From: Candidatus Marinacidobacterales bacterium | Lineage (GTDB): Bacteria > Acidobacteriota > Vicinamibacteria > Marinacidobacterales > SMYC01 | Assembly: GCA_965237955.1 (NCBI GenBank) | Contig: OZ250169.1 | Location: 6,240,001 to 6,304,000 of the forward strand | Reading direction: 5' to 3' | Length of the DNA: 64,000 nt | In this document: piece after piece, positions 51,648-61,496 of the stretch | Position numbering within the stretch: position 1 is the stretch's first letter | Layout of the letters: each line of letters starts with the position of its first letter | The notes under the pieces: model-generated | The model's input: the letters and a program-made list of their open reading frames with translations, nothing else | Told to the model about the DNA's origin: nothing | The model's database searches: none | Program-made: the position numbers and the translations under genes

Positions 51648-52268
51648 CTACAGGGTTCCGTACAAGCGATCCCCGTAGTCACCGAGGCCGGGCATGATGT
51701 ATTTTTGTTCGTTGAGCGCACGATCGACGGCCGCGGTATAGATGTCGACGCCAGGGTGGTCCTCGCCTAGGCGCTCGATGCCTTCGGGCGCGGCGACGAT
51801 GCAGAGTAGCCGCACCCTGGTCGCTCCTTGCTCCTTCAAGAGCGCCACCGCGGCGCTCGCCGAGCCTCCGGTCGCCAGCATCGGGTCGAGCAAGAACACG
51901 AACGCGCCGGAAAGATTCGGGAGTTTACGATAGTACTGTCGCGCCACCGCCGTGGATTCATCGCGTTCGAGCCCGACGTAGCCAACCGACGCTTTCGGAA
52001 AAATCGACAGCATCACGTCCAACATACCCATCCCGGCCCGTAGCACCGGAACCAGCACTACGACCGCATCGAGCCGCTTGACGTCGGTCTCTTCGAGCGG
52101 GGTGCGAACCTTGTCCGCGCGGCTCGGTAGATCGCGCGACGCGTCGAAGGCGAGAAGGGTCGTCAGCTGGCGCGAGAGCAGCCGAAAGCGCTCCGGTGGC
52201 GTCGATTGGTCCCGCAACTCGGCGAGGACTTCCGCGATGAGAGGATGCTCGACATGATGGAGCGCCAC
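51648..52268 (-). CDS. upp: Uracil phosphoribosyltransferase
   Basis: VLRAGMGM, DPMLATGGS, PGLGDYGDR. Confidence 0.95.
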   Translation of the reverse strand: MALHHVEHPLIAEVLAELRDQSTPPERFRLLSRQLTTLLAFDASRDLPSRADKVRTPLEETDVKRLDAVVVLVPVLRAGMGMLDVMLSIFPKASVGYVGLERDESTAVARQYYRKLPNLSGAFVFLLDPMLATGGSASAAVALLKEQGATRVRLLCIVAAPEGIERLGEDHPGVDIYTAAVDRALNEQKYIMPGLGDYGDRLYGTL

Positions 52269-52316
52269 GCTAACGTCCTTCCTTTCGCAAAGCTGGTATC
52301 ATCATAACCCTTCGCG

Positions 52317-53627
52317 ATGAGAGCGGTCGATATCCTCCACAAAAAAAGACACGGGCTGGCACTCGAGCGCGACGAGATCGCGTTTCTCGTCGATGGCTTC
52401 ACCGCCGGCGACATTCCCAGCTATCAGATTTCCGCGTTCCTGATGGCGGTGAGCCTCACGGGAATGAACCAGGTGGAGACACGCGCTCTCACCGAAACCA
52501 TGCTGGCGAGCGGCGCCGTTTTGGATCTCTCCGACATTCCCGGCGAGAAAATCGACAAGCACAGCACTGGAGGTGTCGGCGACAAAACGTCGCTCATCAT
52601 CGCCCCTCTCGCGGCAGCCGCGGGTGTCCGCGTTCCCATGATCTCGGGCCGCGCGCTCGGACACTCCGGGGGAACTATCGACAAGCTCGAGGCGATACCA
52701 GGCTTCGACGTTCATCTCGACGAAAAGCGATTCAAGGACGTCGTCGGCTCAATAGGATGCGCGATCATCGGCCAAAGCGAAGACATCGCCCCCGCGGATC
52801 GAAAGCTCTACGCTCTGCGTGACGTCACCGCAACCATCGAGAGCCTTCCTTTGATCACCGGCAGCATCCTCTCGAAAAAGCTCGCCGAAGGTATCTCGGG
52901 TCTCGTCCTCGACGTGAAGTTTGGAAGCGGTGCGTTCATGAAAACGATCGACGAGGCGCGCGCCCTCGCGGATCTCCTTCTCGATACCGCAACGCACATG
53001 GGGAAGAAAGCCACAGCTCTCCTCACCGATATGAATCAACCGCTCGGCAACTACGTCGGAAACGCGCTCGAGGTGGAAGAATCCATCGCCGTTCTCAGCG
53101 GTGACGGAGCGGCCGATCTCACCGCCCTGTCGGTGACGTTGACCGCCCACATGCTCGTTCTCGGTGGAGTGGCGGCTGACGCCGAGGAAGGCGCAGAGAA
53201 AGCCGAGCGCGTGCTCGCCTCCGGGCAGGGTCTCGAGAAGTTTCACGAGCTCGTGAACGCTCAAGGCGGGGACGCGAGTCGGTTGCCGCGCGCCAAGCGG
53301 CGGAAGATCCTCGAAGCTCCCCGAGCGGGCTATGTAGCAACGATCGCAACCGAAACAATAGGGCGCGCGGCCATGATGCTCGGGGCCGGGCGCGAGACGG
53401 TGGACGACACCATCGATCCCGGCGCCGGGCTCGTCGTGCACAAAAAGCTCGGAGACGAGGTCGCTTCCGGTGAGCCCCTGGTCACGCTTCACTTCAACGA
53501 CGAGTCGAACCTCGCCGAAGTCGAGAAGCTCGTGGCCCACGCGTACCAGATCTCAGATACTGCCCTTGCCGTGAGTGAGCTCGAGCTCGTACGTGCCGTT
53601 CTCACTCCGCTCGAAAGGAAGGCTTGA
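52317..53627 (+). CDS. pdp: Pyrimidine-nucleoside/thymidine phosphorylase
   Basis: DKHSTGGVGDK, SGRALGHSGGT, LYALRDVT. Confidence 0.94.
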   Translation: MRAVDILHKKRHGLALERDEIAFLVDGFTAGDIPSYQISAFLMAVSLTGMNQVETRALTETMLASGAVLDLSDIPGEKIDKHSTGGVGDKTSLIIAPLAAAAGVRVPMISGRALGHSGGTIDKLEAIPGFDVHLDEKRFKDVVGSIGCAIIGQSEDIAPADRKLYALRDVTATIESLPLITGSILSKKLAEGISGLVLDVKFGSGAFMKTIDEARALADLLLDTATHMGKKATALLTDMNQPLGNYVGNALEVEESIAVLSGDGAADLTALSVTLTAHMLVLGGVAADAEEGAEKAERVLASGQGLEKFHELVNAQGGDASRLPRAKRRKILEAPRAGYVATIATETIGRAAMMLGAGRETVDDTIDPGAGLVVHKKLGDEVASGEPLVTLHFNDESNLAEVEKLVAHAYQISDTALAVSELELVRAVLTPLERKA

Positions 53628-54826
53628 TGGAGCGCTACATCGGAATCCTGGGCCTCGTCGTCATCCTCGGCATCGCGTACGCCGCCTCGCTCGATCGAAA
53701 GGCCATCAAGCCGCGCATCATCGTGTGGGGCCTTGTCCTCCAGTTTACCTTCGCCCTGTCCGTGATGAAAATTCCCGTCGGCATGGCGAGTCTGAGCGGT
53801 CTGGCCACGGCCACCAACGGGTTGATGAACAAGGCGAACGCCGGCGCCGAGTTCATTTTCGGCGATCTGGCCACGACTGATAACCTCGGCTTCATCTTCG
53901 TCGTCAAAGCGCTCCCCATCATTATTTTTCTATCGTCGCTCTTCTCCATCCTTTACTACGTTGGCGTGTTGCAACTAATCGTGCGCGTGATGGCGAAAGT
54001 GATGGTGCGGACGATGGGCACGAGCGGAGCCGAATCCCTCGCCACCGCCGCGAACGTCTTCATGGGGCAAACCGAAGCGCCTCTCGTCATCGCCCCCTAC
54101 ATCGACAAGATGACGTACTCCGAGGTCGCGTTGGTGATGATCGGCGGCATGGCGACGATCTCCGGCGCAGTACTCGGGGTGTACATCGGCTTCGGCGCCC
54201 AGGCGGAGTTTCTTCTCGCCGCGAGCATCATGAACGCGCCCGCCGCAATCGTGATGGCCAAGATGCTGGTCCCCGAGACCGGCGAGCCTCTCACCCGGGG
54301 CGAGGTCAAGCTCAAGCTCGAACGCAAAGAGGTCAACATCATCGACGCGGCCGCCCGTGGCGCCGGAGCTGGGATGACGCTATCGCTCAACATCGCCGCG
54401 ATGCTCATCGCGTTCGTCTCGCTCATCGCTCTCGTCAACTGGCCTCTTCAATATTTAGGGACATCCCTCGAGCAGATCTTTGCTTTGGTGTTCGCCCCGC
54501 TTGCCTACTTGATGGGTGTCCCCTGGAACGAGTCCGGCGTCGTTGGCAATCTCATCGGACAGAAAGTGATCGTCAACGAGTTCGTCGCCTACCAATCGCT
54601 CGGAGTGCTCAAGGCCGCCGGTGAGATCTCTGCGCGCGCGGAGCTCATCACGACGTACGCGCTCTGTGGCTTTGCCAACATCGCGTCGATCGCGATCCAG
54701 ATCGGCGGCATCGGCGGACTGGCACCGACTCGGAAGCCCGACCTCGCGCGCCTCGGCATGCGCGCGCTCCTAGGCGGTTCCCTGGCAACATTCATGACCG
54801 CCTCCATCGCGGGTCTACTGAACTAA
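53627..54826 (+). CDS. nupC: NupC-family concentrative nucleoside transporter
   Basis: GQTEAPL, NEFVAY, LCGFAN motifs. Confidence 0.92.
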   Translation: MERYIGILGLVVILGIAYAASLDRKAIKPRIIVWGLVLQFTFALSVMKIPVGMASLSGLATATNGLMNKANAGAEFIFGDLATTDNLGFIFVVKALPIIIFLSSLFSILYYVGVLQLIVRVMAKVMVRTMGTSGAESLATAANVFMGQTEAPLVIAPYIDKMTYSEVALVMIGGMATISGAVLGVYIGFGAQAEFLLAASIMNAPAAIVMAKMLVPETGEPLTRGEVKLKLERKEVNIIDAAARGAGAGMTLSLNIAAMLIAFVSLIALVNWPLQYLGTSLEQIFALVFAPLAYLMGVPWNESGVVGNLIGQKVIVNEFVAYQSLGVLKAAGEISARAELITTYALCGFANIASIAIQIGGIGGLAPTRKPDLARLGMRALLGGSLATFMTASIAGLLN

Positions 54827-54870
54827 TAGGGTGATGAAAGACTGAAAATGCTGATGACGCGGAAAAAAAA

Positions 54871-54973
54871 CAACGCAAAGTCGCAGGGACGCAAAGACGC
54901 AAAGGGGTTGGTTCACTTCGCTTCACTCGACTCGCTTTCTTTGCGCCTCCGCGTCTTGGCGTCTTTGCGTTTG
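54871..54973. repeat. Octamer (ACGCAAAG) palindromic element, copy 3
   Basis: caacgcaaagtcgcagggacgcaaagacgcaaag ... ctttgcgcctccgcgtcttggcgtctttgcgtttg. Confidence 0.85.
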
Positions 54974-55013
54974 TTTTTGGGAATCACAGGCACGCACTCT
55001 CTCTAGACAAGAC

Positions 55014-55844
55014 ATGAACATCGTCGCGAACATTCGAGAAGCCGCCACGTTCGTCGGCTCGAAAACGAAGCTTCGGCCGTCAATCGGGATCGTGCTCGGC
55101 TCGGGGCTAGGCGGTTTTACTGACTCGCTCACCGGCGCCACCGAACTCCCCTACGAGGAGATCCCCCATTTCCCGCGCTCGAGCGTGACCGGGCACAAGG
55201 GACGTCTTCTCGCGGGCACGTTCAAAGGCGTTCCGTTGTTCGTCATGTCCGGGCGCGTCCATGCTTATGAAGGCTATGCGGCGCAGGATGTAGTCTTCCC
55301 CGCGCGTGTCCTCGGCACCCTCGGTGTGAAAGTGTTGATATTGACGAACGCTGCCGGCGCGGTGAATACGGCGTTCTCACCGGGCGAGCTCATGATCATC
55401 ACCGATCACATCAACTTGACAGGACTCAATCCCCTCCTCGGTCCGGAGCTCACCGAGCTCGGACAACGTTTCACCGACTTGAGCTCCGCGTACGATACCA
55501 AGCTCGCCGAAACTTGTGACCAGGCGGCGCGGCGGATCGGGCTGAACTTGAGAAAAGGAGTCTACGCCGGCTTTCTCGGACCGAGCTTCGAAACGCCGGC
55601 CGAGATCAGGATGGTCCGCACCCTCGGCGCCGACGCCGTCGGAATGTCGACGGTGCTCGAGACGATCGCGGCCAAGCATATGGGAGTTCGGGTGCTCGGA
55701 ATCTCATGCATGACCAATATGGCGGCCGGCATCCTGCCCCAAAAGATCAATCACGTCGAAGTCATGGAGATTGGACGGCAGGTACACTCCGTATTCATCG
55801 AGCTTTTGGCGTCAATGCTTCCCGCTCTCCACAAACAAGCGTAG
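55014..55844 (+). CDS. punA: Purine-nucleoside phosphorylase (trimeric type)
   Basis: LGSGLG, GRVHAYEG, GPSFETPAE, VGMSTV. Confidence 0.93.
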   Translation: MNIVANIREAATFVGSKTKLRPSIGIVLGSGLGGFTDSLTGATELPYEEIPHFPRSSVTGHKGRLLAGTFKGVPLFVMSGRVHAYEGYAAQDVVFPARVLGTLGVKVLILTNAAGAVNTAFSPGELMIITDHINLTGLNPLLGPELTELGQRFTDLSSAYDTKLAETCDQAARRIGLNLRKGVYAGFLGPSFETPAEIRMVRTLGADAVGMSTVLETIAAKHMGVRVLGISCMTNMAAGILPQKINHVEVMEIGRQVHSVFIELLASMLPALHKQA

Positions 55845-55854
55845 CGGAGATCTC

Positions 55855-56250
55855 ATGAGGGAAGCACCCGAGGACCTCGTGGAAGCGGCCACCGCGGTAA
55901 GGGAGAACGCAATCGCCACGTTTTCCAAGTTCAAAGTCGGCTCGGCCCTTAGGACCGACAAAGGCACCGTCTACACCGGCTGCAACGTAGAGAACGCAAC
56001 CCTCGGCCTCACCGTGTGCGCCGAACGCGTTGCTCTTTGGAAGGCACTCTCGGAGGGCGAGCGGGCATTCACCGAGATCGCCGTCGTCACCGCAGCGGAG
56101 AGACCCACCCCACCCTGCGGCGCCTGCCGCCAACTACTATGGGAGTTCTGTGGCGACATTCCCGTCTACATGGTGAGTACGTTGGGAAAGCGAGCAACGC
56201 TTCTGCTGAGTGAGCTCGTTCCGTACGCTTTTGATAAGCGTGATCTTTGA
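55855..56250 (+). CDS. cdd: Cytidine deaminase
   Basis: GCNVEN, CAER, PCGACRQ; start re-set to ATG after GGAG. Confidence 0.93.
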   Translation: MREAPEDLVEAATAVRENAIATFSKFKVGSALRTDKGTVYTGCNVENATLGLTVCAERVALWKALSEGERAFTEIAVVTAAERPTPPCGACRQLLWEFCGDIPVYMVSTLGKRATLLLSELVPYAFDKRDL

Positions 56251-56269
56251 TCCAGCGTCCAGTCAACAA

Positions 56270-56782
56270 CTACTTCACAACTGCCACATAAGGCAATTCC
56301 CGATACCGTTGGTCGTCGTCCAAACCGTAACCGACCACGAAACGATCCGGTATCTCGAAGCCGATGTAGTCCACCGGGACATCGATTTGTCTTCGTGAAG
56401 GCTTCGACAAGAACGCGGCGACTTTCAGCGACGCTGGCGGGCGCGAGCGCAGCATCGTCAACAAGTAGTTCAATGTCAGCCCGGTGTCGGCGATGTCTTC
56501 GACAACGATCACGTCTCGTCCCGCGAGCGACACGTCGAGATCCTTGGTCAGCTGCACTTCCCCGCTCGATGTCTTGCCTTTGCCGTAGGACGACACCGCG
56601 AGGAAATCCATGGTGACCGGAATTTCCATGGCGCGAAAGAGATCCGCGAGAAACGTGTACGCGCCCTTGAGAACGCACACGAAGTGGACGGTCTTACCCT
56701 GATAGTGGCCGCTGATCTCTTTGCCTAGCTCGCGGACCCGAGCGGCGATCGCTTCTTCGGAGATGAGGATCTCGAACGCCAT
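56270..56782 (-). CDS. hpt: Hypoxanthine phosphoribosyltransferase
   Basis: VLKGA, VEDIADTGLT, FVVGYGLD. Confidence 0.94.
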   Translation of the reverse strand: MAFEILISEEAIAARVRELGKEISGHYQGKTVHFVCVLKGAYTFLADLFRAMEIPVTMDFLAVSSYGKGKTSSGEVQLTKDLDVSLAGRDVIVVEDIADTGLTLNYLLTMLRSRPPASLKVAAFLSKPSRRQIDVPVDYIGFEIPDRFVVGYGLDDDQRYRELPYVAVVK

Positions 56783-56794
56783 CTACCAACGGAT

Positions 56795-57742
56795 TCAGCT
56801 CATGGCGCTTCTCGCCCAGAAGCCCTCGCCGAACGTAACGGTGATGATGCCCCAAGCCTCGACCGGCTTGCCTTCTTTGAGAGCCGGCTTCCAACGGAAG
56901 AGCTTCGCGTTCTCCTTCGCGGACTCGACGCAGCCGTACCGGAGCGACTTGATCACGCCGGTCACTTGAGTCGACCCGTCGAGCTTTACCAGGATTCGGA
57001 GAATGACTTCGCCGCTCACCATCTTCTCTTTCGCCGAGGGCGGGTACACAGGGTCGGGTGGCTTGAACACGAGAATCGGGTCGATGTCCCACGCGCCCGG
57101 AGAGAAGTCTCCACCGCCGAATCCACCGCCGCGACCGGGACCCACACCCCAGCCTTCGCCGCCTCCCACGCCGGTACCGTCACCGCCGCCGATACCGGCC
57201 TCGGTGCCGGCACTCACCGTGGTGTCGAGGCCGCCGAAGTCGCGAGAATCCGTTAGCGACAGCCCCGGAAACTCCCGTTCGTCCGGGGAGAATATACCTT
57301 CGAAGAGAAGGTCCGTCTCCGTCGGCAAGTCGGGTATGTTGAGCTCATCGAAATTCAGCTGCGGAGGCTTTCGGGGTGCGACCGGCGCTTGCCGCAGCTC
57401 GGGCTCTTCTGCCTCCGGTTCGGAAGGTTCGTCGCGGACCGGAATAAACGCGGTAATGCGATCACCGTGATCGCCGCCGCCACCGCCGCCGCCGCCCTGT
57501 CCTGAGCCGCCTGGAATCCAGAAGCGAACGATAACCTCCCCAGGAATGAAAGGCTCGTCCCACAACCACTTCGCGAGCGGACCGACGATCATCAGCAAAA
57601 GAACGAGAAAATGAGCTAAACTTGATGACCCAAACCACTTCCGGTGACGGTCCCACTTGAGCTTGAGCGTACCCTCCTCGGAGAGACGCACCATCCCAGC
57701 GAAAAACTCAGGTTTCCTGTGCATGTCGCCCGCGTCACCCAT
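56795..57742 (-). CDS. Energy transducer TonB family protein with Gly-rich linker
   Basis: SSLAH TM, Gly-rich stretch, PVYPPSA...GEVILRILV...WKPALKEGKPV. Confidence 0.8.
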   Translation of the reverse strand: MGDAGDMHRKPEFFAGMVRLSEEGTLKLKWDRHRKWFGSSSLAHFLVLLLMIVGPLAKWLWDEPFIPGEVIVRFWIPGGSGQGGGGGGGGDHGDRITAFIPVRDEPSEPEAEEPELRQAPVAPRKPPQLNFDELNIPDLPTETDLLFEGIFSPDEREFPGLSLTDSRDFGGLDTTVSAGTEAGIGGGDGTGVGGGEGWGVGPGRGGGFGGGDFSPGAWDIDPILVFKPPDPVYPPSAKEKMVSGEVILRILVKLDGSTQVTGVIKSLRYGCVESAKENAKLFRWKPALKEGKPVEAWGIITVTFGEGFWARSAMS

Positions 57743-57846
57743 TGCCGCCTAAATGTTAGCACGGCGTAGAAATGATCGCCCATTATGGACCCGATTTCTT
57801 CGGTGAGGCTTGCAACCACAACCTGGTGCGTCATAGATTGAACACC

Positions 57847-58488
57847 GTGGCCGAAACAAAACGCCGCATCCTTACGGGTGAAGACGTCCAAGCAATCCCG
57901 GAAGGAGGCATCCTCGACGTCGCTCCGGGAACGGTGCTCACCGATGTCGCGCGCGAATGGATCACGAAGCGCAAGATTCGTGTCGTCGAACAAACGAGCG
58001 AACAAACGAGCGCTCGCGACGCGATCGAGGTCGCGCGCGTCGCCATCGGCTCGGACCACGGTGGTTTCGATATGAAAGAATCGCTCAAGGGGTACTTGGA
58101 CGAGCTTTCCGCGACTTTCGTCGACTACGGTACCTATTCCAAGGAGTCCGTCGACTATCCGGACTTCGCGCACGCGGTGGCGCTCGCGGTGGCCGTCGGC
58201 CACGCGCGCCAGGGCATCGTCATCGATGGCGCCGGCATCGGCTCGGCCATCGCCGCCAACAAAGTCCCCGGGATCCGCGCGGGCGCGTGCTACCAGGAGG
58301 CGGGCGCCAGAAACGCGCGCGAGCACAATGACATCAACGTCCTGACGCTGGGCTCGACGCTCATGCCGCCGGAAAAACTCAGACCGATCGTCCACATCTT
58401 TCTGACCGCGCAGCATACCGAGTCGCGTCACAAAAACCGCGTCGCCAAGATCATGGACGTGGAAAAAAGGTACTATCGCAAACTATGA
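57847..58488 (+). CDS. rpiB: Ribose-5-phosphate isomerase B with N-terminal BMC-associated extension
   Basis: [30 protein letters not shown]; catalytic Cys position is Asp (IDGAGIG). Confidence 0.88.
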
Positions 58489-59345
58489 CGTGGGATCTGG
58501 ATCGACTCACCGAGCTCGTGACCGATGCGGTCATTGCTCAGCTCCGGGCCCAGCTCGGGGCCCAATCCGGTTTGGCCGAGCCCCCATGCGCGTGCCACCA
58601 TCTCAGCCCAGGCCAATGCCCCGATGTCATGCGGCCTCTCGTCGAGCGCGGCGCCGAAAGGTTCGGGCTGACCGCGTCGGCGCCCCACGCCGGGCTATCC
58701 GCGCTTATCGACCACACGCTCTTGAAACCCGACGCGACCGAAGAACAGATTCGAAAACTGTGCGCGGAGGCAGCCGAGTACAAGTTCGCGACGGTATGCA
58801 TCCAGCCCACGTGGGTGCGCTTCGCCGCCCGTCTGCTTCATGGAACCGGCGTTGGTGTGTGCACCGTCGCCGGGTTCCCGCTCGGCGCGAACACTCCCGA
58901 CGTCAAAGCCTACGAGACCCGCCGTGCGGTTTTCGACGGTGCAACGGAAGTCGACATGGTCATCAATATCGGCGCTCTCAAATCGCGCGATTACCAAACG
59001 GTGGAAGACGATATCCGCGGCGTCGTTCGTGCCTGTCGTGAAGGCGGAGCGTTGAGCAAAGTGATTATCGAGGCCGCTCTCCTCGACGACGATGAGAAAG
59101 TGAAAGCATCTACCCTCGCGGCGGCCGCGGGGGCGGACTTCGTCAAAACGTCTACCGGGTTCGGCCCCGGAGGCGCCACGGTGGAGGACGTCGCTCTCAT
59201 GCGACAAGTCGTCGGAGAGAACATGGGAGTCAAGGCCGCGAGCGGCGTTCGCGATCGCGCCACCGCAAAACAGATGGTGCAAGCCGGCGCTACTCGCATC
59301 GGCGCGAGCGCGGGGATTCGTATCGTTAAGGAAACCGAGCTATAA
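58485..59345 (+). CDS. deoC: Deoxyribose-phosphate aldolase with N-terminal encapsulation-peptide-like helix
   Basis: [28 protein letters not shown]; extra ~70-aa N-terminus. Confidence 0.93.
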
Positions 59346-59939
59346 GAGCTTGAGCGCCAACGCGTAGTCCTCGGGCGTGTCGATGTCGAAGCACACGCCG
59401 GCATCGTCGACCGGAACGGCGAGCGCCTCGAAACGATGCGCGTCGAGCAGGGATTTGGCACCGCGGTCCCCCTCGACGCCAGACAGCTCATCGACGAGCG
59501 CGGCATCCCAGAGGACTGGATGTCCTTGCTGCCCGCGATACACGGGGTAGACCACTTTGGCGTCACCTTCTTCGGCCACGGCTTCGAACACATCGAGGAG
59601 TTTGCGGATCGTCTCGGGTTTCACCAAGGGTTTGTCGGCGAGGGCGACGAGCACGACGCGCGTCGCGTTGGGTAGACCCCGGAGCCCCACCCGCAACGAG
59701 CTCGAAATTCCCTCGTCGCGGTTGGGATTCCGAATGACTTCGAGGCTTTTCGTTGCAGCCAGGGCTCTTGGACCGAGCGCCGAGCCGGGCGGAACGACCA
59801 ACCGCACGCGATCCACGGACCCGTCCAACAGATTTTGAACGCTTCGCTCTACCAGCGTCATACCCCCGAGCTCGAGCTCGAGCTTTGGCCGTCCCATGCG
59901 GCGAGACGCGCCCGCCGCGAGCACAATCGCAACGCGCAT
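59340..59939 (-). CDS. mocA: Molybdenum cofactor cytidylyltransferase-like nucleotidyltransferase
   Basis: [30 protein letters not shown]. Confidence 0.82.
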
Positions 59940-59943
59940 CGTT

Positions 59944-60738
59944 CTAATCGCTCGACACCCGCATGCGATAGAAGCACTCGTTGGGCTTCAGGGCTTCGCC
60001 GAAAACGACTTCGGAGACACCGCCCCTGAGCAGTCTCTCGCCGAGACGCTCGGCCGCGAGCAAACGATAGTCACTCGCTTTGTTCAAGAACACCGCATGC
60101 CGACTCCCCTTCGGGAGCTTCGGTAGATAACCCTTGATCACGGCGGCGGCAATGACGCCTTCGGTGACCTCCATTCCCGGGGCGGTGCCGGAAAGACTGG
60201 TGACGACCTCGAGGCGGTGCACTTGATCCTCATCGAGACGCTGGTCGAGAACGTCCAGTCCGACGAGGATGATCGATAGCGTGGTTTCCTCGGGAATCAT
60301 AGGCTCGTGTTGTGCCGGAGCCTTGAGGGAGCGGTTACGAGCACCGTCGGCCTCGATGACGACGCAATCCGCAAGGCTTCGTAGCGGATCCACCATCACC
60401 AGCTCGACGCCTTCGAGCTTGTCATCGCGACCACGTTTCTGAATGACAGTGACCGAGCCGTAACGAGCAAGGCGGGCCTTCACCGTGGTGAGCCAGTTCT
60501 CCTCGTCGCCGACGACGACAAGTGGCGGTGTCGTCGTCGCGGCAACCGGCATTTGCATGTGAGTCGTCGACGTCACGACAACGCTCAACCCACGCTTGCG
60601 CAGCTCGGTGGCAAGGGCATAGAGAACGGTCGTTTTGCCGCCCGCTCCGACGAGACTTACGACGTCGCCCGCGCCCACCGAAAGTGCGTCGACGAGGCCG
60701 AATCCGGAGTCGATCTCGATCTTGGTTGTCTGACTCAT
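59944..60738 (-). CDS. yqeC: Selenium-dependent hydroxylase accessory protein YqeC
   Basis: SLVGAGGKTT, TSTTHM, IEADGA...LKAP..HEPMIP; adjacent to mocA. Confidence 0.88.
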   Translation of the reverse strand: MSQTTKIEIDSGFGLVDALSVGAGDVVSLVGAGGKTTVLYALATELRKRGLSVVVTSTTHMQMPVAATTTPPLVVVGDEENWLTTVKARLARYGSVTVIQKRGRDDKLEGVELVMVDPLRSLADCVVIEADGARNRSLKAPAQHEPMIPEETTLSIILVGLDVLDQRLDEDQVHRLEVVTSLSGTAPGMEVTEGVIAAAVIKGYLPKLPKGSRHAVFLNKASDYRLLAAERLGERLLRGGVSEVVFGEALKPNECFYRMRVSSD

Positions 60739-60776
60739 GTGCCTAAAGGGTAGTATAGGTCGTTCGGCAGGGAACA

Positions 60777-61496
60777 ATGCACATCACCGTTTGGGCTCTT
60801 CTTGCGCTCGTCGTCATGTCGCCCTTCGGGGAGTGGGCCACCCGATGCACGAGACAGGAAGACTACGTGCACGAGCGCGAGGCGATGGTGCGCGATCAGC
60901 TCGAAGCGCGCGACATCGATGACCCGGCAGTGCTCGAAGCGATGGGAGCCGTGCGCCGTCACGAGTTCGTGCCCGCGATGCTCAAGACGCGCGCCTATGC
61001 AGACCACCCACTACCCATCGGCAATCAACAAACGATTTCGCAGCCTTACATCGTCGCGCTCATGACCCAGCTCGCCGAGGTCTCCGCGAACGACGTCGTT
61101 CTAGAAGTGGGGACCGGCTCCGGCTACCAGGCTGCGGTGCTGGCCGAGATCGTGGACCAGGTCTACACCATCGAGATCATCTCTGAGCTAGCAGCCAGCG
61201 CACAGGAGCGTTTGACATCGCTTGGGTACGACAACGTGAGCGTCAGAGCAGGCGATGGCTACCTCGGCTGGGAAGAGAAAGCTCCGTTCGACGCGATACT
61301 CGTCACCGCGGCAGCGCCGGAGGTCCCGCCCCCGCTCGTGGAGCAGCTGAAGCGGGGAGGCATCATGATCATTCCAATAGGACCGCGGTCCCAAGTCCAG
61401 AGCCTGCGCCGCATCCAAAAAGCCGAAGACGGATCGACGACGAATGAAGAAGTGATCCCCGTCGTGTTCGTACCACTGACGCGCGAAGTCCGTTAG
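60777..61496 (+). CDS. pcm: Protein-L-isoaspartate O-methyltransferase
   Basis: QTISQPYIV, VLEVGTGSGYQAA, APFDAILVTAA. Confidence 0.93.
   Translation: MHITVWALLALVVMSPFGEWATRCTRQEDYVHEREAMVRDQLEARDIDDPAVLEAMGAVRRHEFVPAMLKTRAYADHPLPIGNQQTISQPYIVALMTQLAEVSANDVVLEVGTGSGYQAAVLAEIVDQVYTIEIISELAASAQERLTSLGYDNVSVRAGDGYLGWEEKAPFDAILVTAAAPEVPPPLVEQLKRGGIMIIPIGPRSQVQSLRRIQKAEDGSTTNEEVIPVVFVPLTREVR

What the first reader, a model, noticed from the sequence alone, without database searches (positions are those of the whole stretch)
51648..59345. Microcompartment-type RpiB and DeoC beside a nucleoside scavenging cluster, with no shell genes
Seen: DeoC begins with an amphipathic helix ([17 protein letters not shown]), then a CxC-x7-C linker. 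RpiB has an extra ~55-aa module (RRILTGEDV...[10 protein letters not shown]...IRVVE) and Asp in place of the usual catalytic Cys. Neighbours are pdp, nupC, punA, cdd, upp, hpt and a TonB. Known: sugar-phosphate-utilisation (SPU) bacterial microcompartments have DeoC and RpiB as signature enzymes, and encapsulation peptides are short terminal amphipathic helices; DeoC releases acetaldehyde. Inference: a satellite locus linking nucleoside or DNA scavenging to an SPU metabolosome encoded elsewhere. No phosphopentomutase is present in the window.
Basis: partly seen in the sequence, partly recalled or inferred. Interest (0 to 1): 0.7.

Follow-up and report, generated by a model that had tools for sequence, protein, structure and literature searches.

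The report
Hidden DNA-sugar cargo for acidobacterial microcompartment
Two genes here encode a DNA-sugar-splitting enzyme and a partner protein with packaging-type extensions but no shell genes nearby, and they likely supply the catalogued Acidobacteria (ACI) protein organelle encoded elsewhere in this genome, which would give that organelle of unknown function a testable substrate.

Summary
The sequence features are real. The genome (an Acidobacteriota MAG, close to Ca. Marinacidobacterales) has shell genes 0.39 and 2.8 Mb away. They form the catalogued ACI type (class II aldolase, BMC-H, three BMC-P; BMC-H plus aldehyde dehydrogenase satellite), not an SPU operon. In 301 sampled Acidobacteriota genomes, shell genes occur in 89 of 89 with an extended DeoC and 62 of 62 with a module-bearing RpiB (baseline 156 of 301). 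The RpiB module is the same domain that ends the ACI dehydrogenase (profile probability 96.7). Among 121 ACI genomes, about 71 have the extended DeoC, mostly with pdp (69) and deoB (62). Another 36 lack DeoC, so it is optional cargo. Best reading: a shell-less third ACI locus that feeds deoxyribose-5-phosphate-derived acetaldehyde to the ACI dehydrogenase. Encapsulation is inferred, not shown. The Asp-RpiB and the DeoC extension are published SPU traits, and distal DeoC was suggested for HO microcompartments. I found no paper linking DeoC to ACI. This scan earlier noted ACI loci, SPU loci and the DeoC cysteine motif on other DNA, but my look-ups showed no note making this link.

The parts
51648..52268 (-). 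upp, uracil phosphoribosyltransferase
   Evidence: PF14681 E 3.8e-64; near rpiB-deoC in most Vicinamibacteria loci
52317..53627 (+). pdp, pyrimidine-nucleoside phosphorylase (releases (deoxy)ribose-1-phosphate)
   Evidence: TIGR02644 533.8 bits, over cut-off
53627..54826 (+). nupC, CNT-family nucleoside transporter
   Evidence: PF07662/PF01773/PF07670
55014..55844 (+). punA, purine-nucleoside phosphorylase
   Evidence: TIGR01700 314.7 bits, over cut-off
55855..56250 (+). cdd, cytidine deaminase
   Evidence: TIGR01354 over cut-off
56270..56782 (-). hpt, hypoxanthine phosphoribosyltransferase; the most conserved neighbour of rpiB-deoC
   Evidence: TIGR01203 over cut-off; present in 18 of 30 compared deoC loci
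56795..57742 (-). TonB-like protein, divergent from rpiB; probably unrelated
   Evidence: PF03544; at this position only in L012-L017
57847..58488 (+). rpiB with Asp for the catalytic Cys; likely start GTG 57847 (alternative ATG 57772)
   Evidence: PF02502; alignment to solved RpiBs; homologue starts; only RpiB in the genome, RpiA present elsewhere
57862..57990 (+). 43-aa folded N-terminal module of RpiB, homologous to the C-terminal domain of the ACI aldehyde dehydrogenase
   Evidence: hhalign probability 96.7, E 4.5e-10; model pLDDT 89-97; weak PF15953 match below cut-off
58225..58227 (+). Asp152 codon at the catalytic-Cys position of RpiB
   Evidence: invariant in 29 of 29 aligned homologues
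58485..59345 (+). deoC, deoxyribose-5-phosphate aldolase with 70-aa N-terminal extension; overlaps the rpiB stop by 4 nt; only DeoC of the genome
   Evidence: TIGR00126 285 bits, over cut-off; D157, K221, K250 invariant; second PF01791 hit is DusB
58494..58559 (+). Predicted encapsulation-peptide helix of DeoC (residues 4-25)
58587..58619 (+). C35-x-C37-x7-C45 linker (with H38, H39), possible metal site
   Evidence: exact motif in 45 of 71 shell-less Acidobacteriota homologues, 0 of 21 SPU-locus and 0 of 40 other homologues

Best explanation
The rpiB-deoC pair is likely a third, shell-less locus of the ACI microcompartment whose shell genes lie elsewhere in this genome: DeoC is predicted to be packed into that shell by its N-terminal helix, where it would split deoxyribose-5-phosphate and pass the acetaldehyde to the ACI acylating aldehyde dehydrogenase. 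Steps: NupC imports nucleosides. Cdd, Pdp and PunA release bases (salvaged by Upp and Hpt) and (deoxy)ribose-1-phosphate (family assignments shown, activities inferred). A mutase makes deoxyribose-5-phosphate: DeoB in most relatives, while in this family DeoB is missing and a PGM/PMM-family mutase is a candidate (weak inference). Inside the shell DeoC gives glyceraldehyde-3-phosphate plus acetaldehyde (active site shown intact; activity shown only for an SPU6 homologue, PMC11585597). The dehydrogenase makes acetyl-CoA (inferred). Asp-RpiB is probably a packaging or scaffold partner rather than the housekeeping isomerase (inferred). The ACI shell would be a shared aldehyde-trapping organelle with two aldolase inputs: the constant class II aldolase and this optional DeoC module.
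For: Shown: the genome has aldII-H-P-P-P at G000:3487540-3489526 and H-AldDH at 6687195-6689261, matching the ACI description (PMC8217296 Suppl. Data 2); no other BMC-H or BMC-P gene was found. BMC-P is in 89 of 89 genomes whose DeoC aligns into the extension versus 19 of 61 core-only, and in 62 of 62 with module-RpiB; baseline 156 of 301. 0 of 28 DeoCs from shell-less genomes score on the extension profile (at most 1.9 bits, versus 10-45 bits for six shell-linked ones). Within-group contrasts agree: f54 has G085 and G097 with shell and extension, G152 and G261 with neither; sister family f92 lacks both shell and DeoC, 0 of 4. The RpiB module is homologous to the ACI AldDH tail. The AldDH scores best on acetaldehyde dehydrogenase (acetylating) TIGR02518, 614 vs cut-off 620. 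Within ACI genomes pdp is in 69 of 71 and deoB in 62 of 71 with extended DeoC, versus 2 of 36 and 1 of 36 without DeoC. deoB lies 5-24 kb from deoC in 11 f39 genomes and pdp 5-16 kb away in 10 f14/f32 genomes. The nearest homologues outside this group sit inside SPU loci. FRAG5 and FRAG8, whose dehydrogenases are closest to ACI's, carry DeoC.
Against: No experiment or expression data shows encapsulation or co-regulation. 36 of 121 ACI genomes have no DeoC match and 14 have a core-only or weak one, so DeoC cannot be the defining ACI enzyme. Genomes are related, so the counts overstate independence. Co-occurrence of pdp, deoB and deoC is expected for any deo pathway and supports the substrate, not the packaging. 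The alignment-start proxy had one false positive (G140) and at least two false negatives (G034, G086) on inspection. The single helix is not significantly amphipathic on its own. Shell-less family f40 has DeoCs with a different helix-plus-Cys extension (no detectable homology, probability 0.8). deoB is absent from this family (0 of 13), there is no PduL, and no BMC-T was detected. This RpiB has no encapsulation helix. The quick tree does not show one origin for the satellite DeoCs.
Confidence: 0.7

Rival explanations
1. DeoC is an ordinary cytosolic deo-pathway enzyme inherited from a broken-up SPU locus. The extension is a relic or serves oligomerisation or metal binding, and the ACI shell handles only the class II aldolase's product.
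For: ACI shells persist without DeoC in 36 of 121 genomes. DeoC is the genome's only DERA and sits among salvage genes. Shared ancestry alone can give co-occurrence. Shell-less f40 DeoCs also carry N-terminal helix-Cys additions.
Against: The extension is kept across about 25 families but was found in 0 of 28 DeoCs from shell-less genomes, including within-family contrasts. The RpiB module is shared with the shell-linked dehydrogenase.
Confidence: 0.17
2. The pair is encapsulated, but the real substrate is another sugar phosphate that Asp-RpiB isomerises to feed DeoC or the class II aldolase; the nucleoside genes are chance neighbours.
For: RpiB keeps its other conserved residues. The class II aldolase reaches no family cut-off (best OtnC-like 133 vs 250 bits). 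The full nucleoside cluster is adjacent only in some lineages.
Against: DeoC passes the deoC equivalog cut-off with an intact active site. pdp and deoB track it and recur near it in separate families. The SPU6 Asp-RPI had negligible ribose-5-phosphate activity (PMC11585597). f14/f32 loci showed deoC without an adjacent rpiB.
Confidence: 0.1
3. A separate, complete SPU locus exists but is missing from this assembly.
For: The genome is a MAG (98% complete, 6.2% contamination). Contiguous SPU loci occur in other Acidobacteriota (L191; 11 SPU3 rows in PMC11585597 Suppl. Dataset).
Against: The assembly is a single contig. All 15 relatives with BMC-P have exactly three. The same split is seen in near-complete genomes (G002, G017, G078, G131).
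Confidence: 0.03

Closest known systems
ACI microcompartment type (Sutter et al. 2021, PMC8217296; main-text passages and Suppl. Data 2 parts 1, 2, 4 read)
   Same: Main locus with class II aldolase bearing a C-terminal peptide, BMC-H and BMC-P triplet; satellite with BMC-H and a dehydrogenase that has a peptide followed by a ~50-aa domain of unknown function; Acidobacteriota host.
   Different: The published description lists no DeoC or RpiB. This genome's main locus lacks the hydroxyacid dehydrogenase and the small Cys-rich protein. The '~50-aa domain' is here shown to recur on RpiB.
SPU microcompartments, subtypes 1-7 (Axen 2014 PMC4207490, passages; Dwyer 2024 PMC11585597, parts 1-4 of 10 and supplement searches)
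   Same: Adjacent rpiB-deoC, Asp for the RpiB catalytic Cys, ~70-aa DERA extension, BMC-P triplet and dehydrogenase in the genome.
   Different: No shell or dehydrogenase gene in the locus; no BMC-T, PduL or PduS locus found; the shell and dehydrogenase are ACI-type; RpiB carries a folded module and no helix in this genome.
HO, FRAG5, FRAG8 and SPU7 types (Sutter 2021)
   Same: Dispersed organisation. HO genomes were noted to have a distal DeoC with an EP-like extension; FRAG5 and FRAG8 have DeoC and ACI-related dehydrogenases; SPU7 has DeoC in a satellite.
   Different: Those are other phyla and shell sets. In FRAG5, FRAG8 and SPU7 DeoC was catalogued through shell-anchored loci; here it has no shell neighbour.
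deo pathway for deoxynucleoside catabolism (Pdp/DeoA, PunA/DeoD, DeoB, DeoC; established knowledge, recalled)
   Same: Phosphorylases, transporter and aldolase present.
   Different: DeoB is absent in this family, and DeoC has a packaging-type extension.

Membership tests
ACI BMC (genome level) | Main locus: class II aldolase with C-terminal EP, BMC-H, BMC-P triplet | tested here: met
   the EP is judged by position and pattern (moment p=0.11)
ACI BMC (genome level) | Satellite AldDH with EP near the C-terminus followed by a ~50-aa domain, beside BMC-H | tested here: met
   BMC-H beside it in 30 of 30 fetched loci
ACI BMC (genome level) | Hydroxyacid dehydrogenase and ~80-aa Cys/EP protein in the main locus | tested here: not met
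   Not in this genome's main locus; a 46% homologue of the dehydrogenase lies elsewhere, no hit for the small protein. The dehydrogenase was in only 14 of 38 main loci compared.
ACI BMC (genome level) | Shell-protein clade assignment by BMC Caller HMMs | not testable with these tools
   HMMs not available; BMC-H is 74-90% identical across aldII-H-P-P-P loci
SPU BMC | DeoC/DERA with catalytic Asp, Lys, Lys and N-terminal extension | tested here: met
SPU BMC | RpiB with Asp at the catalytic Cys, next to DERA | tested here: met
SPU BMC | DERA, AldDH and shell genes in one BMC locus | tested here: not met
   Nearest shell gene 0.39 Mb away, main locus 2.8 Mb away
SPU BMC | At least one BMC-T | tested here: not met
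   Only two single-domain PF00936 matches; a divergent permuted BMC-T could be missed
SPU BMC | RPI with N-terminal EP helix | tested here: not met
   The model shows a folded alpha/beta module directly at the N-terminus; some relatives (f39, Anaerolineae) have a helix before the module
SPU BMC | DERA-RPI complex and encapsulation | not testable with these tools

The most novel reading that the evidence does not exclude
The ACI microcompartment, one of the commonest uncharacterised types and found across Acidobacteriota, is a dispersed, modular organelle. In about 60-70% of carriers it takes the SPU signature pair from a locus with no shell gene, invisible to shell-anchored surveys, and so processes DNA-derived deoxyribose phosphate. 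The ~45-aa domain shared by its dehydrogenase and Asp-RpiB is a second, non-helical cargo-assembly signal.
Probability: 0.5. Interest if true: 0.72.

Novelty: new variant of a known kind. Interest (0 to 1): 0.57.

Why it matters
ACI has 125 catalogued loci and no assigned substrate. Dwyer et al. state that among microcompartments DERA occurs only in SPU loci. If the pair is ACI cargo, a major soil and marine phylum uses a protein organelle for deoxynucleoside catabolism, SPU-type chemistry is more widespread than counted, and locus-based catalogues miss cargo that has no shell neighbour. It yields direct tests: substrate, targeting peptide and a shared domain.

Tried and rejected
Single-helix hydrophobic moment: not significant. 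EP-profile scan of the genome for more cargo: nothing credible beyond DeoC itself (E 0.08; next 0.57); it also missed the aldolase and dehydrogenase peptides, so it is insensitive. Module-profile scan: only RpiB and, weakly, the dehydrogenase (E 0.07). Module against PDB sequences, ESM Atlas and Foldseek: no informative match (the Foldseek hits are all to the RpiB core or weak). Promoter and terminator scan: uninformative. DeoC tree: quick method only; satellite DeoCs need 5 changes, one origin neither shown nor ruled out; the group labels were mine and not all genomes were verified as ACI. Class II aldolase substrate: unresolved. The idea that Asp-RpiB is the housekeeping isomerase was rejected because RpiA is present. 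Homology of the f40 extension was rejected. The 20 paired genomes were chosen because the tables showed shell and deoC apart, so 'no shell near deoC' there describes them and is not an unbiased test. Paper searches found no ACI-DeoC link. The library lacks most subscription papers, two large supplement archives of PMC8217296 and one scanned file of PMC11585597 could not be read, and locus diagrams are figures I could not see.
Full report
Setting. The window is G000:C1:6240001-6304000 of an 8.13-Mb single-contig genome, 98% complete and 6.2% contaminated. The closest DeoC relatives are Ca. Marinacidobacterales and Vicinamibacteria, phylum Acidobacteriota.

Observation. All quoted features are present. 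The genes read upp(-), pdp-nupC-punA-cdd(+), hpt-tonB(-), rpiB-deoC(+), so they form several units; rpiB and deoC overlap by four bases. Family assignments are from Pfam and NCBIfam. DeoC has D157, K221 and K250 invariant in 26 aligned sequences, a modelled N-terminal helix at 5-25 and a low-confidence Cys linker. The helix alone is not significantly amphipathic (p=0.18). The aligned set is (24 of 26 rows used, 0 of 2000 shuffles). RpiB has Asp152 for the catalytic Cys. 84 of 91 fetched homologues parsed as Asp; 5 were unparsed and 2 were mis-parsed or other. Its N-terminal module is 43 aa and confidently folded in the model.

The genome. There are two BMC-H and three BMC-P genes: a class II aldolase-H-P-P-P locus at 3.488 Mb and an H-dehydrogenase pair at 6.687-6.689 Mb. 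This matches the ACI type as described in Sutter 2021 (main-text passages; Suppl. Data 2), including the small domain after the dehydrogenase peptide. That description names no DeoC or RpiB. The genome has one RpiB, one DeoC and one RpiA, no PduL and no deoB. It has four PGM/PMM-family mutases, two PF01515 matches and two Fe-ADH matches, none at the BMC loci.

Comparative test. One sample of 301 Acidobacteriota genomes (at least 90% complete) was searched with DeoC, BMC-P, RpiB, the dehydrogenase, deoB and pdp. Only the best 150 of 194 DeoC rows and 150 of 371 RpiB rows were listed, and the classes rest on those. BMC-P is in 156 of 301 genomes. It is in 89 of 89 whose DeoC alignment starts at or before query residue 50, in 19 of 61 of the rest, and in 62 of 62 whose RpiB alignment includes the module. 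Direct inspection of 40 N-termini (39 parsed) found none of 28 from shell-less genomes scoring on the extension profile. It also exposed one false positive and at least two false negatives of the proxy. The ACI-type dehydrogenase (E<1e-140) is in 127 genomes, 126 with BMC-P. Leaving out five f29 genomes, most of which have six pentamer genes, 121 remain: 71 with extended DeoC (25 of 36 families), 14 core-only or weak, 36 with none. Seventeen extended-DeoC genomes lack the ACI dehydrogenase; at least one is a contiguous SPU locus (L191). pdp and deoB follow the extended DeoC (69 and 62 of 71; 2 and 1 of 36 without DeoC), and lie near it in separate families. Among 20 nearest relatives, family f92 lacks both shell and DeoC (0 of 4), f91 has both (4 of 4), and f1 has DeoC in 10 of 12 and shell in 11 of 12, the misses being 75-84% complete. 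Kin are not independent, so these are descriptions and not statistical tests. G023 (unpublished) only contributes to the denominators.

Synteny. hpt-rpiB-deoC without shell genes recurs in Vicinamibacteria, Pyrinomonadales and Terriglobia. The full nucleoside cluster is adjacent in six closest relatives and in G002. Extended homologues from Anaerolineae, Eisenbacteria, Thermoanaerobaculia, Woeseiaceae and Spirochaetota lie inside rpiB-deoC-shell-dehydrogenase loci. A quick tree interleaves some satellite DeoCs with these.

Shared domain. A profile of 69 RpiB modules aligns with a profile of 30 dehydrogenase C-termini at probability 96.7, E 4.5e-10, and the dehydrogenase is the top non-self hit in this genome, though weak. 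It weakly matches PF15953 in 15 of 29 members, below cut-off. A resemblance to the EutQ N-terminus is recalled, not tested. This ties RpiB to the ACI core independently of gene position.

Mechanism. See Best explanation. Shown: genes, motifs, distribution, domain homology. Inferred: encapsulation, substrate channelling to the dehydrogenase, RpiB as scaffold. Dwyer 2024 (parts 1-4 of 10 read) showed DERA activity, a DERA-RPI complex and negligible isomerase activity for an SPU6 pair, and reported Asp in all SPU RPIs. The gap at deoB is family-wide (0 of 13). A 548-aa mutase is present in 12 of 13 of this family and absent from the deoB-bearing sister family (0 of 4); this is one evolutionary event, so a lead only.

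Against. ACI persists without DeoC, so its constant chemistry is that of the class II aldolase, whose substrate I could not assign. A relic extension on a cytosolic enzyme cannot be excluded without experiments. Shell-less f40 DeoCs have an unrelated helix-Cys extension.

Novelty. The protein features are published SPU traits, and distal or satellite DeoC has precedent in HO, SPU7, FRAG5 and FRAG8. The link of a shell-less rpiB-deoC locus to ACI was not found in seven paper searches, in passages of Axen 2014, BMC Caller and a sponge-symbiont paper, or in four look-ups of earlier scan notes. Verdict: new variant of a known kind, interest 0.57.

Noticed in passing
G000:C1:4531897-4533543 (-), L213: 548-aa PGM/PMM-family mutase that reaches no NCBIfam cut-off; present in 12 of 13 genomes of this deoB-less family and 0 of 4 of the deoB-bearing sister family. 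Candidate replacement phosphopentomutase.
   Followed up: partly
L278, L279, L281, L295, L299 (family f40): DeoCs of shell-less genomes carry a different ~60-aa N-terminal extension (helix plus 1-3 Cys), not detectably related to the BMC-type one. G245, of another family, has a near-identical copy.
   Followed up: partly
window 58620-58670 (DeoC residues 46-62): The second helix of the extension ends in a G-A-x-R-hydrophobic-G motif that echoes the last strand motif of the barrel; present in 64 of 71 satellite homologues, 7 of 21 SPU, 1 of 40 others. Possibly an old partial duplication.
   Followed up: no
window 59340-60777 (-): mocA-like cytidylyltransferase and yqeC-like gene converge on deoC; conserved only in close relatives.
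   Followed up: no
G000:C1:3486624-3487535 (+): TPR protein and YHS-domain protein directly upstream of the ACI aldolase; TPR in 19 and YHS in at least 12 of 38 main loci.
   Followed up: no
L160, L161, L167, L168, L185, L188, L189: ACI-like H-P-P-P loci with no class II aldolase match within the fetched stretch; in f39 and f28 DeoC may be the main aldolase.
   Followed up: no
window 54826-55014: Intergenic stretch between nupC and punA with an imperfect inverted repeat seen by eye; not folded.
   Followed up: no
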